Below are positions 53,707 through 60,380 of a stretch of 64,000 nt of DNA, one piece after another. The stretch's first letter is position 1; every line of letters begins with the position of its first letter. The stretch is taken from contig JAQGDQ010000061.1 in assembly GCA_030141605.1 (NCBI GenBank), forward strand, positions 483,685-547,684, read 5' to 3'. Made by a program: the position numbers and the translations under genes. The notes beneath the pieces were generated by a model, which saw only the letters and a list, made by a program, of their open reading frames with translations, searched no databases and was not told the origin of the DNA. The DNA comes from Tubiluchus corallicola. Taxonomy: Eukaryota > Animalia > Priapulida.

Positions 53707-56700
53707 ATGAGTGGATGCACGCGAATATTCCTAGTCAGCTTGGTAACTCTCTTAGTCTGTTCTCGCCTCGTCCACAGCCGCTACTTACCTACACGATCGG
53801 AAGGGAATAACTTAGACAGACTTTTACAGGCTGTAAGTATACTTAATAACACAAATTAATTCATAATTCAGTGTTATTATGCTTGTCGCGGTACAGTGGA
53901 AATGAAATTTAAAAATTTTAAAGTTGCTCTGAGAACTTCGCATTATCCACTGATAACAAATGTAGGCCAGTTACAGGTTTTAAGATATAAGATCATTTTG
54001 ATAGATGTCATAAATTGAATAAACTTTGGTTCTGGTGAAAATCTAGTTTTAATTAAAATGTTCACGCTAAAGATAAAATAAAAACGCCTTTATTGCTAGA
54101 ATTCCAAGGGCTTGTCAAATATACCCGTCTTCTGGCACTAAAACAAAGTGGGTAGCATCTAAATTTAAGACTTTGACAAAAACATTGCTCAGTTGTCTGT
54201 CTCTTTGCATTTTGCTAAGTAAAATGTTGCACTTGGATTTCATCCGGTTTTGTTTTAGTTGTTGACTGATGATGGGTACGTGTTGATACGCAAAACGTTT
54301 CAGAACCTTTCAGAATTCTTAGAATAAAATGATTTATTTTTATTTTGCGAATTTCTGTCCCTGGTGTTGACTTGTCATAAATTCATTGACAAATTGGCGA
54401 GAGCTAAGTGATCACATTCAACAGTTAAACTTTAAACAGATAGCACCGCATCAGTATGTTATTGATTTGCGACATTTTGTGAATTGATAAATCTCACTGT
54501 TACATGGATGATAATGCAAAAAACAATATAGCATTATATTGTAATACGATTTCACTAGAACTACTAACTGCTTGACCATAAATAGCCGGCACGTTACACG
54601 GGCCAAAAAAGTAAGCTATTTGAAGTTCGATGTCTTCCTGGTCCAGATGTTTACGCAGGAATAAACTTCATCATCGAGGCACTATTTGCCCTGTAAGGTT
54701 CTGAAAGGACTGACCTAACACTAAGTACACTAAATGAAAGCAATTACCAGGTCATCGCTTAGACCGACTGTCTCGTCACAAAGTCCGTCAACTTTCTCCT
54801 GAGACTCTAATCAAGTCCAAGAATGGAGAGAAAGGGAGGTCTATTCGTTGCCCGAATGTTAATAACTTTGTACTAGCTCAAAAGCACGTCTTCGAAGAGA
54901 ATCGACGCCCGTGCAATCACACACATCATCAACAGAAGAGTAGAGGAATACTATTCAGATCAAACTATAGCAGAATGCAGCGTTTGTTCATGTTTATGGC
55001 ATACAAATTGGCTCAAGTTTACATGGAGGACATTCTGAATATAAATAGCTGACCTTTGGCTCTGAATAACCTAAATGAAACGAACTATTTATGTTGAAAA
55101 TGTGGCATAAACAATAGTTTATATCACTATTAGAACACAAACAACATTTCTAAATGCTTTAGGATAACTTATCTATCCAATTTAGTTCACTTCGACTGCA
55201 CTTAGCTTCTATTAACCTACTTCATTGTTATTTCCAGTATCTCTGAAAGACAGAAAATAGTGCATAAAATATAAAAACTACAAATAATGTTTTTATTGTA
55301 ACTTACGTTTCATCTTTTTGGATCGTCTGACTAACGTTTATAAGCGGATACAATACTGTAATGGATTCAGAAGTAAATGATATAACCTACCCTTTTACGT
55401 GCCGGTATGGTCGGGAAGGTGTTTGCATTCCATTTACTTTACCATATAGAATTGATGATTGGTCTGGCTTTGTAGATACAGGCAAAATACGCTGATTCAA
55501 ATCGGGGAACTTTTTAGTTTACAATTTTTTTGTTGGCATTATGATAAGGATTATTTAGAATAATTCAGTTACATGCGAAAAATCTATGTTTTAGAATTAA
55601 GAGAACTGAAGGCAGGTTGAAGTAATTCAGTCACATTTTTAAGTAATTTGTCATTTAGGGAATGCAGGCAGTTTCCAAAGATTATCATAGTTCAACTGGC
55701 TTCAGTGCTTAGGTGTATCCCAAACAATACCCCCCCCCCCATGGCCAAGATCTTACTGGGGCGTTTGCTTTAATACTGGAATACAATTAGCATACCTGAT
55801 CAAAACTGACTAGAATGTATGTAAAATTGTTTTTTTAGTCACTAGAAACTTTGACATAACCGGCTGCCGGTGGATTGTATTCAGCAATCCGGATAATCTG
55901 GGCAAAGATCAAAATCGAGTTTGGTGGCTGCTGATATGATAAAAAACACACACAAAAACACACACACACACACACACACACACACACACACACACACACA
56001 CACACACACACACACAATAATTTTATTCGAAAAACTTACTTGACATCATTACTCGGCGCTTTGCACTGCCTAATTGCCATGCTAACGACAAATTAGCACC
56101 TGAAATAACTTTACTATGTCTGCTATATGAGCGCTCAGTGTTTCAATAATAACCCTTGAGGTTACAGATAGTGTGGCAAATTCAGTCATAGTTACGTGAC
56201 TCTGGCCTGTATTTAGCTAAATGCTTTTATTGTACACATCACGATACCACTAATTACTCGTCTACACAACTGACTCAGGTACCCTTTGTACAAAAATTGT
56301 ATCGATTTCTTTTAAAGTGCACAACATCTGCTGCTGGTAATGACTGTTATAATAACAAAGCGTTATCTGAAATTACCTGTTTTTAGTTATTCGTTGCTTT
56401 TAAGTTAGTATCCCCTGTTTTTATATTTAAAAAATCAACTTAGGCCGAGAACTTTCATTATATCGCAGTAACTCAAAATGATTTCAAACAGGGAAATATT
56501 GGTAGCCTAACAAGAAAAAATAAATTAGCAGAAGAATGGATAACTGAAAGGCTGGCTGAGTAACTGACTGAATGTCGAAAGGCTGGCTGATGGGAGCAAA
56601 CTGACAAACAACTGGCTAGCCAACCACCCCGCCATCCAACTGATCAGTCGACTTTCTAGCTTTATAAAATTATTCTTTTTTTGTTTAGCTGGCACAAAAA

Positions 56701-59700: not shown

Positions 59701-60380
59701 GCCGTTTCCGTCTAGTGCTTGCCGGCAAGTAAAAGCAATACTAACATCAACACCAATAGCAACAACTGGAAACCGATAGGAACGGCGATAATAACAACAG
59801 CAGCAACAGAAACAATGAGAATAGTCACAGTGACAACAAAACCAACAACGGTGACTGTGACAGCATTAGTGCTAGCAACAACAAGAAAAACAAGAAGCAC
59901 ATTGATACTTAAAATTTCTTTTTTTATTTGTGGTCTTTCTTCTGCTGAACACGTGCCAAAAAACTTCACTGCTTTAAATGCAGCTATAATACTCAAGTAA
60001 GGTAACTGATTCAGATTGCTGGAAACTAGGTCCAATCTGCACGTTACAGGTGACCATAACCAAATTTGGTTTGCTGACGCGAATTGTGAGATCCACATTA
60101 ACCTGCTTACTGGCCTGTTTACTTGCTGTTAGTTAGTTAGCTTGTTTGATTTTGTGTTCGTTCTTACTTGTCTGTCTTTCTGTTTGCCTGTCTGTCTGTT
60201 TTTATGTATGTTTATCTGTTTGTTGATTCAGTTAGCCTGTTTTTTTGTTTACTAGTATGTTCGTTTGTTTGTTTGTTTCTATTTGTTTATATGTTTGTCT
60301 GTTTGTATTACCTTTCTCCTGATTGATCTGCTCACTTCGATTTGTTGTTTTTCCAGAAATCTTACCGACGACGGAAATAG
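53707..60380 (+). CDS. Proc: proctolin neuropeptide precursor (~94 aa) with an additional C-terminal Cys-loop peptide
   Basis: Exons 53707-53832 (MSGCTRIFLVSLVTLLVCSRLVHS-RYLPT-RSEGNNLDRLLQA), 56689-56823 (LAQKEDTGVEAAENMGLQDEGIQEN-KR-FQYMYLCFDKTGKYHMCY) and probable 60357-60380 (KSYRRRK*). Both donors are GTAAGT, phase 0. RYLPT-R directly after a hydrophobic signal peptide is the defining proctolin architecture. The last exon is less certain. Confidence 0.88.
55946..56015. repeat. (CA)n microsatellite
   Basis: Directly visible. Confidence 0.95.
58466..58745 (+). mobile_element. tRNA-derived SINE with a Meta-domain-like core and (TTA)n tail
   Basis: A box tagctcaatgatagcg, B box ggttcaactc, then ccgagtcataccaaagacttgaaaaatggtacc..caagcacgc, resembling the MetaSINE central domain (from memory). 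Ends in a (TTA)n run at 58631-58745. Confidence 0.7.
60110..60310. repeat. degenerate (GTTT/GTCT)n tract upstream of the putative last proctolin exon
   Basis: Directly visible. Confidence 0.8.

What the first reader, a model, noticed from the sequence alone, without database searches (positions are those of the whole stretch)
53707..60380. Proctolin precursor that also encodes a second, disulfide-looped peptide: a proctolin/whitnin-like hybrid
Seen: the spliced frame is signal peptide | RYLPT (53779-53793) | R | acidic spacer | KR | FQYMYLCFDKTGKYHMCY(KSY) | RRRK*, with Cys at 56788 and 56818 (C-x9-C). Established (from memory): insect and decapod proctolin precursors release RYLPT and lack a C-terminal Cys pair, although decapods keep a short KRFMYKR stretch. 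Lophotrochozoan whitnin/SPTR/PKYMDT precursors place PKYMDT after the signal peptide and an ERYMGIC...C loop peptide after a dibasic site; homology to proctolin has been proposed. Inference: this gene joins an exact RYLPT to a QYMYLC..C loop peptide, so it may retain the ancestral two-peptide architecture and release an undescribed cyclic co-transmitter.
Basis: partly seen in the sequence, partly recalled or inferred. Interest (0 to 1): 0.9.

Follow-up and report, generated by a model that had tools for sequence, protein, structure and literature searches.

The report
Proctolin precursor carrying whitnin-type loop peptide
This spliced gene encodes the arthropod nerve peptide proctolin and, at its far end, a two-cysteine segment laid out like the loop peptide of mollusc and annelid whitnin, so it likely releases a second, ring-closed peptide and would bridge two peptide families long suspected to be one.

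Summary
Three coding exons (53707-53832, 56689-56823, 60357-60380) give a 94-residue precursor. A public contig joins exons 1 and 2 and runs on into exon 3. A public 94-residue protein matches at 93 of 94 positions. RYLPT follows a predicted signal peptide and precedes Arg, as in proctolin. After a 37-residue spacer and KR comes a C-x9-C segment. It shares whitnin's layout: spacer 35-41 in 9 of 10 published whitnins, first Cys 5-6 residues after KR, matching flanking residue classes. It differs in its shorter loop (9 against 12-13), no SPTR segment and no amidation glycine. None of 7 arthropod proctolins in that table has the loop. No whitnin or other proctolin was recovered by database search, so homology rests on layout and motif. 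Likely mechanism: two co-released peptides, RYLPT and a 21-residue cyclic one. The host taxon is unplaced. Myriapod, chelicerate, priapulid and rotifer precursors in print could not be seen, so prior description is not excluded.

The parts
53704..53705 (+). Splice acceptor AG just before the start codon; an upstream 5' UTR exon of about 159 bases was not located
   Evidence: Sequence; 159 loose bases before 53704 in the X2 contig; its last 30 letters not found in the window with up to 3 mismatches
53707..53832 (+). Coding exon 1, residues 1-42
53707..53778 (+). Predicted signal peptide, residues 1-24
   Evidence: Hydropathy up to 3.2 over residues 7-18, Val at -3 and Ser at -1; inferred, no SignalP run
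53779..53793 (+). Proctolin pentapeptide RYLPT, residues 25-29
   Evidence: definition in PMC7179676
53794..53796 (+). Monobasic Arg30, predicted cleavage site behind proctolin
   Evidence: same site in polyneopteran precursors
53833..56688 (+). Intron, phase 0, GT..AG, 2856 bases
   Evidence: Joint 53832 to 56689 in the X2 contig
56689..56823 (+). Coding exon 2, residues 43-87: acidic spacer, KR and nearly all of the loop peptide
56764..56769 (+). Dibasic KR, residues 68-69, predicted convertase site, 37 residues after Arg30
56770..56823 (+). Loop peptide, residues 70-87, with Cys76 (56788) and Cys86 (56818); predicted beta-hairpin
   Evidence: strands 73-77 and 83-87 at pLDDT about 70 in a single-sequence model
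56824..60356 (+). Intron, phase 0, GT..AG, 3533 bases
   Evidence: Loose end behind 56823 equals the start of exon 3; P0001
60357..60380 (+). Coding exon 3, residues 88-94 and stop: last three residues of the loop peptide (to 60365), then four basic residues (60366-60377)
60381..61008 (+). 3' UTR, extent uncertain; AATAAA at 60519, 60875 and 61003; the X2 contig would end near 60803 if colinear

Best explanation
The gene encodes a 94-residue precursor with RYLPT near its start and a two-cysteine segment at its end, and it is predicted to be a secreted neuropeptide precursor that likely releases two peptides: proctolin and a 21-residue disulfide-closed peptide likely homologous to the ERYM loop peptide of whitnin. 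Shown: exon structure, splicing, frame, positions of RYLPT, Arg30, KR68-69, Cys76, Cys86 and the basic tail. Inferred steps: signal peptidase cuts after Ser24; a convertase cuts at Arg30 and carboxypeptidase trims to free RYLPT; the Cys pair oxidises in the ER; a convertase cuts at KR68-69 and in the basic tail, leaving residues 70-90 as a free acid (calculated MH+ 2717.17 oxidised, 2730.16 for the N80 form). Both would be packed in the same vesicles and released together; RYLPT would act on a proctolin-type GPCR and the cyclic peptide on a receptor not yet known. Historically, proctolin and whitnin would be one gene family whose ancestor had pentapeptide, helical spacer and loop; insects and water fleas lost the loop, molluscs and annelids keep it behind an SPTR leader, and this animal keeps the proctolin front with the loop.
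For: Splicing and frame. Proctolin features: pentapeptide straight after the signal peptide, monobasic Arg, 74-104 residues (PMC7179676). Whitnin layout, counted by eye on the 10 whitnin rows of the 23-row table: spacer from the Arg to KR 35-41 in 9 of 10 (53 in Crassostrea), here 37; KR to first Cys 6 residues in 7 of 10 and 5 in 3 of 10, here 6; residue after first Cys F, M, L or V in 10 of 10, here F as in the 4 annelids; second and third residues after the last Cys [KRQ][GS] in 10 of 10, here KS; YM four and three places before the first Cys in the 4 gastropods, and here; a G-basic-aromatic turn in the 4 annelids, and here. A residue-class motif of this layout is met by 16 of 1,000,000 shuffles of residues 31-94 and by 0 places in 127,996 six-frame residues of the window; with KR and both Cys held in place the three flank classes are met in 1087 of 200,000 shuffles, and with YM as well in 6 of 200,000. 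The mollusc ERYM peptide is processed and disulfide-bonded by mass spectrometry (PMC3434067). Language-model neighbours include DH31, PDH, NPF, urotensin-2B and gastrin precursors, all under 0.9, a lead only.
Against: No whitnin and no other proctolin was recovered: one search gave 1 hit of 1 candidate and one search gave 1 hit of 2 candidates, each time P0001 itself; phmmer over 1.84 billion representatives gave P0001 and two long unrelated proteins; Pfam gave 0 families. The motif was built after seeing this sequence and its loop length was widened to admit it, so the shuffle counts overstate the case. Loop 9 against 12-13 in 10 of 10 whitnins; no Pro before the second Cys; no amidation Gly; no SPTR segment; Tyr after the last Cys is not among W, F, M, L of the whitnins. 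Cys conservation is seen only in two very close copies (P0001, and X2 as far as its differences are listed). The model (mean pLDDT 60.6, pTM 0.25) gives a hairpin but no evidence on the disulfide. No tissue, peptide or receptor data.
Confidence: 0.7

Rival explanations
1. An ordinary proctolin precursor whose tail gained a Cys pair on its own in this lineage; the likeness to ERYM is convergence of short aromatic, basic loops.
For: No significant database match to whitnin; loop length, Pro motif and amidation differ; insect precursors end in a free-running tail behind a conserved [LF]YKR site, where a new peptide could arise.
Against: Spacer length, KR-to-Cys distance, and flank classes at both Cys all agree with whitnin at once, in a gene already proposed on other grounds to be whitnin's orthologue.
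Confidence: 0.12
2. The host is a spiralian or other non-arthropod, and the gene is a whitnin that lacks SPTR and carries RYLPT. The two-peptide mechanism would be the same, but the gene would not show retention within arthropods.
For: The host could not be placed. Proctolin-like precursors are reported from rotifers, and the alignment of that figure is of priapulid, rotifer and arthropod peptides (10.1101/2024.07.20.604414; figure not seen). The spacer departs from the insect consensus after residue 40.
Against: RYLPT exact and directly behind the signal peptide, followed by RS and an LDRL helix start as in insects. The three best clusters for the neighbouring ionotropic receptor are mostly arthropod (the tool warns that taxa do not give a family's range).
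Confidence: 0.1
3. The loop is homologous to ERYM but is not an independent signal here: it serves folding or sorting of the precursor, or is degraded.
For: No amidation signal; insects do without it; no receptor for any ERYM-type peptide appears in the passages read.
Against: It is bounded by KR and a four-residue basic tail, the usual marks of a released peptide; the mollusc counterpart is found as a mature peptide.
Confidence: 0.06
4. A venom or gland-recruited copy of proctolin, with a loop peptide added, beside an ordinary neural copy elsewhere in the genome.
For: Proctolin-like peptides occur in scorpion and spider-wasp venom (PMC13311285); contig depth 727 in X2, although the tool says depth does not measure expression.
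Against: No second copy in the window; listed differences are all silent, unlike fast-evolving venom genes (general knowledge). The rest of the genome could not be searched.
Confidence: 0.02

Closest known systems
Arthropod proctolin precursor (insects, Daphnia; RYLPT family)
   Same: RYLPT directly after the signal peptide, monobasic Arg, no amidation, 94 residues within the 74-104 range, RS and LDRL helix start behind the peptide.
   Different: C-terminal KR-bounded Cys pair, absent from 7 of 7 trimmed arthropod rows, from the 2 whole cockroach rows shown (of 179 RYLPT occurrences in that file), and from the 2 whole beetle precursors and 9 C-terminal rows shown. It lacks the [LF]YKR motif in that form.
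Whitnin / SPTR / PKYMDT precursor of molluscs and annelids, with its ERYM peptide
   Same: Pentapeptide ending in Thr, then Arg, acidic spacer of about 37 residues, KR, first Cys 5-6 residues on, matching flank classes, loop peptide at the very end.
   Different: No SPTR leader segment; RYLPT in place of PKYMDT or the annelid W-L-[ED]-T type; loop 9 against 12-13; no Pro motif; no amidation Gly.
Strigamia maritima proctolin (PMC4244043, Figure S20)
   Same: Signal peptide, RYLP-type pentapeptide, Arg, helix start.
   Different: RYLPS, and printed only as an N-terminal fragment of 44 residues, so its C-terminus cannot be compared.

Membership tests
Proctolin precursor | Pentapeptide RYLPT immediately after the signal peptide | tested here: met
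   cleavage site by hydropathy and the -3/-1 rule only; definition
Proctolin precursor | Monobasic Arg after the peptide, no amidation Gly | tested here: met
   Arg30
Proctolin precursor | Single copy of the peptide in a precursor of 74-104 residues | tested here: met
   94 residues, one RYLPT
Proctolin precursor | Conserved distal [LF]YKR motif of insect precursors | tested here: inconclusive
   Not present as such; either KR68-69 or the aromatic run behind it may correspond (by eye)
Proctolin precursor | Peptide is released and activates a proctolin-type GPCR | not testable with these tools
   No genome held, no assay
Whitnin (SPTR/PKYMDT/ERYM) | SPTR segment between signal peptide and first basic site | tested here: not met
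   RYLPT starts at residue 25; compare
Whitnin (SPTR/PKYMDT/ERYM) | PKYMDT or annelid equivalent before a monobasic Arg | tested here: not met
   Position and final Thr-Arg agree, sequence is the arthropod one
Whitnin (SPTR/PKYMDT/ERYM) | Spacer of 35-41 residues, then KR | tested here: met
   37 here; 9 of 10 whitnins by eye
Whitnin (SPTR/PKYMDT/ERYM) | C-terminal Cys pair, first Cys 5-6 residues after KR, conserved flank classes | tested here: met
   motif built after seeing this sequence
Whitnin (SPTR/PKYMDT/ERYM) | Loop of 12-13 residues with Pro before the second Cys | tested here: not met
   9 residues, no Pro
Whitnin (SPTR/PKYMDT/ERYM) | Amidation Gly after the loop (molluscs) | tested here: not met
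   No Gly before the basic tail; amidation in molluscs
Whitnin (SPTR/PKYMDT/ERYM) | Significant sequence or profile match to whitnin precursors | tested here: inconclusive
   None found by single-sequence searches, which also found no other proctolin; no whitnin profile could be run
Whitnin (SPTR/PKYMDT/ERYM) | Shared intron positions | not testable with these tools
   No whitnin gene structure was available

The most novel reading that the evidence does not exclude
This is the missing link between proctolin and whitnin: the ancestral protostome gene released a pentapeptide and a cyclic peptide together, this ecdysozoan lineage still does, and the cyclic peptide has its own undiscovered receptor. 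Proctolin would then not be an arthropod invention, the whitnin pentapeptides would be the ligands of the orphan spiralian proctolin receptors, and the conserved C-terminal part of insect precursors, kept even in beetles without a proctolin receptor, would be the remnant of the second peptide.
Probability: 0.4. Interest if true: 0.85.

Novelty: new variant of a known kind. Interest (0 to 1): 0.7.

Why it matters
The link between proctolin and whitnin has rested on a weak likeness of five or six residues. It is still treated as a proposal, with the ligand of the spiralian proctolin receptor unknown (PMC8557429), and a 2026 review calls proctolin an arthropod innovation (PMC13311285). A transcribed gene with an exact proctolin front and a whitnin-type loop ties the two at both ends. 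[quoted passage not shown]

Tried and rejected
Artefact of exon picking: rejected by the joint and loose end and by P0001. Exon skipping or intron retention: both give open but loop-less or altered tails in silico; no such form appears in the one contig seen, which cannot show absence. Homolog searches: searches returned only P0001; one search added P0002 and P0003, long repeat proteins of 945 and 922 residues that look bacterial and match by Tyr/Lys-rich stretches, dropped as chance. PDB sequence search: 5 hits at E 0.26-1.7, chance. Pfam: nothing for the precursor or exons above cut-off. Metagenome contigs: 184 pattern matches, 0 confirmed. Sequencing runs: no RNA holder listed on record; X2 was an added run. 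Host placement failed: a GNMT exon found 1 unnamed hit among 16 candidates at 58%; Rfam 0 matches; no tRNA; no telomere array; no genome held. Rows left out of the counts: 1 allatostatin, 3 penaeidins and 2 lepidopteran 'proctolin' rows of another layout. The structure model was not sent to a fold search because its confidence is low. A complex was not predicted as no receptor is in hand. Earlier scan notes: 8 unrelated prokaryotic notes by words, none by place or sequence. [quoted passage not shown]

Full report
Observation. The region holds a three-exon coding sequence on the plus strand: 53707-53832, 56689-56823 and 60357-60380, with two phase-0 GT..AG introns. It gives 94 residues: a hydrophobic leader, RYLPT at residues 25-29 (53779-53793), Arg30, a 37-residue spacer with 9 acidic and 2 basic residues, KR at 68-69, Cys76 (56788), Cys86 (56818) and four basic residues before the stop.

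The gene is transcribed and spliced this way. A search with exon 2 found one protein, P0001, 94 residues on a 1657-base contig; it equals the spliced product except T80N. Of two runs laid on 53100-58600, X2 has one 870-base contig that covers exon 1 and exon 2, joins 53832 to 56689, and continues behind 56823 with the first 30 bases of exon 3. X2 is RNA by the tool's guess only, but the contig lacks the intron. It carries 159 further bases before 53704, so a 5' UTR exon exists; it was not found in the window. Read by eye, those bases put an in-frame stop four codons before the ATG. The 4 listed coding differences of X2 are silent, of 10 in the two exons. Run X1 behaves as genomic sequence of a related individual and covers introns.

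Proctolin front. Polyneopteran precursors are 74-104 residues long, with the pentapeptide immediately after the signal peptide and ending before a single Arg (PMC7179676). This gene meets each point, and continues with RS and an LDRL helix start as in cockroach and planthopper rows. The signal peptide is inferred from hydropathy and Val/Ser at -3/-1.

Whitnin back. The whitnin-proctolin table of PMC6377233 has 23 rows: 10 whitnins, 7 arthropod proctolins of the usual layout, and 6 rows left out here (1 allatostatin, 3 penaeidins, 2 lepidopteran sequences of another layout). Counted by eye: the spacer from the Arg to KR is 35-41 residues in 9 of 10 whitnins and 37 here. The first Cys lies 6 residues after KR in 7 of 10, 5 in 3 of 10, and 6 here. 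It is followed by F, M, L or V in 10 of 10 and by F here. The last Cys is followed at +2 and +3 by [KRQ][GS] in 10 of 10 and by KS here. YM before the first Cys is shared with the 4 gastropods, and a G-basic-aromatic turn with the 4 annelids. A class motif of this layout is met by 16 of 1,000,000 shuffles of residues 31-94; with KR and both Cys fixed, the flank classes are met in 1087 of 200,000. The motif was made after seeing this sequence and widened in loop length, so these counts are optimistic. Differences: loop 9 against 12-13, no Pro before the last Cys, no amidation Gly, no SPTR segment. None of the 7 trimmed arthropod rows has a Cys behind the pentapeptide, nor the cockroach and beetle rows shown.

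Against. No search recovered a whitnin or a second proctolin: searches found only P0001 and two chance hits, Pfam nothing, metagenome contigs 0 of 184. The homology therefore rests on layout and short motifs. Conservation of the Cys pair is seen only in very close copies. A single-sequence model has helices at 4-26 and 30-45 and a hairpin at 73-87, with mean pLDDT 60.6; it says nothing on the disulfide.

Mechanism. Most likely, signal peptidase, convertases and carboxypeptidase free RYLPT and residues 70-90, the latter closed by Cys76-Cys86 and not amidated. This follows from general prohormone processing and from the abalone and Lymnaea ERYM peptides, which are found processed and disulfide-bonded. 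Release, receptor and action are inferred. How the insect [LF]YKR motif maps onto this gene is open: its KR may be KR68-69 with the loop replaced by a free tail (35 against 37 residues of spacer in the cockroach row), or the aromatic residues before it may be the stump of the loop peptide.

Host. Not placed. Neighbours are two SLC23-type genes, an intronless ionotropic receptor and a GNMT. The receptor's nearest clusters are mostly arthropod, a lead only. An early-branching arthropod or another ecdysozoan is my guess, and a spiralian is not excluded.

What is in print. Ten searches showed no paper describing an RYLPT precursor with a C-terminal Cys loop; I read 15 of the listed or cited papers in part. 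The library lacks most subscription journals. Homology of whitnin and proctolin is proposed, asserted with a tree, and implied by a stem-protostome origin for PKYMDT/whitnin. Supplements that could bear on novelty and were not seen: the .doc files of PMC4770511 with myriapod and remipede precursors, figures and supplement of 10.1101/2024.07.20.604414, supplements of PMC6425005, PMC8557429, PMC4888303 and PMC4696782, and all but the first rows of the proctolin file of PMC7179676. The Strigamia precursor is printed only as a 44-residue fragment. I put the chance that such a precursor is already in print at about 0.3.

Papers and what I saw. PMC3434067: passages and section 8. PMC8557429: passages. 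10.1101/2024.07.20.604414: passages and section 12. PMC7179676: passages and two supplement passages. PMC4770511: passages, supplement list and a blank search. PMC8796508: passages. PMC6377233: passages and supplement files 45 and 46 whole. PMC9151784: supplement search only. PMC6425005: passages and section 9. PMC4696782: passages. PMC6585902: passages and supplement passages. PMC4888303: a blank term search. PMC4244043: passages and a passage of file 20. PMC13311285: passages. PMC5688751: passages. Veenstra 2010 and 2016c and the Lymnaea SPTR paper were not seen, only cited in these.

Verdict. A real, spliced proctolin-family gene with a C-terminal loop peptide laid out like whitnin's. I file it as a proctolin precursor and not as a whitnin, since three whitnin features were tested and not met. 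It likely works like whitnin at its C-terminus. New variant of a known kind, interest 0.7.

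Noticed in passing
window 8100-15100 and 33050-39100, minus strand: Two multi-exon SLC23-type (nucleobase/ascorbate transporter) paralogs in the same orientation; one exon of each matches Pfam PF00860 and one matches solved SLC23A1 at E 1.8e-36. Ends are approximate.
   Followed up: partly
window 21011-22435, minus strand: Intronless 473-residue ionotropic-receptor-like ORF (PF00060, E 8.5e-23); nearest atlas clusters mostly arthropod.
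   Followed up: partly
window 26797-31433, plus strand: Multi-exon glycine N-methyltransferase (one exon matches solved GNMT at E 1e-13). Its first exon is open for about 50 residues before the usual start of the enzyme (family start recalled), perhaps a targeting peptide. Closest database hit is unnamed, 58%.
   Followed up: partly
window 58490-58560: A very high-copy repeat in the second intron (summed depth about 4080 in X1 for that bin); its loose ends look like tRNA A and B boxes (recalled), so probably a SINE. ARAGORN finds no tRNA.
   Followed up: no
window 1698-1718, minus strand: Seven residues identical to precursor residues 69-75; 15 of 21 bases alike, no Lys before and no Cys after; about 0.03 such matches expected. 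Probably chance.
   Followed up: yes
window 53704, upstream: The 5' UTR exon seen as 159 loose bases in the X2 contig was not found in the 64 kb window with up to 3 mismatches in 30; it may be diverged, lie in a gap of this assembly or lie outside the window.
   Followed up: partly
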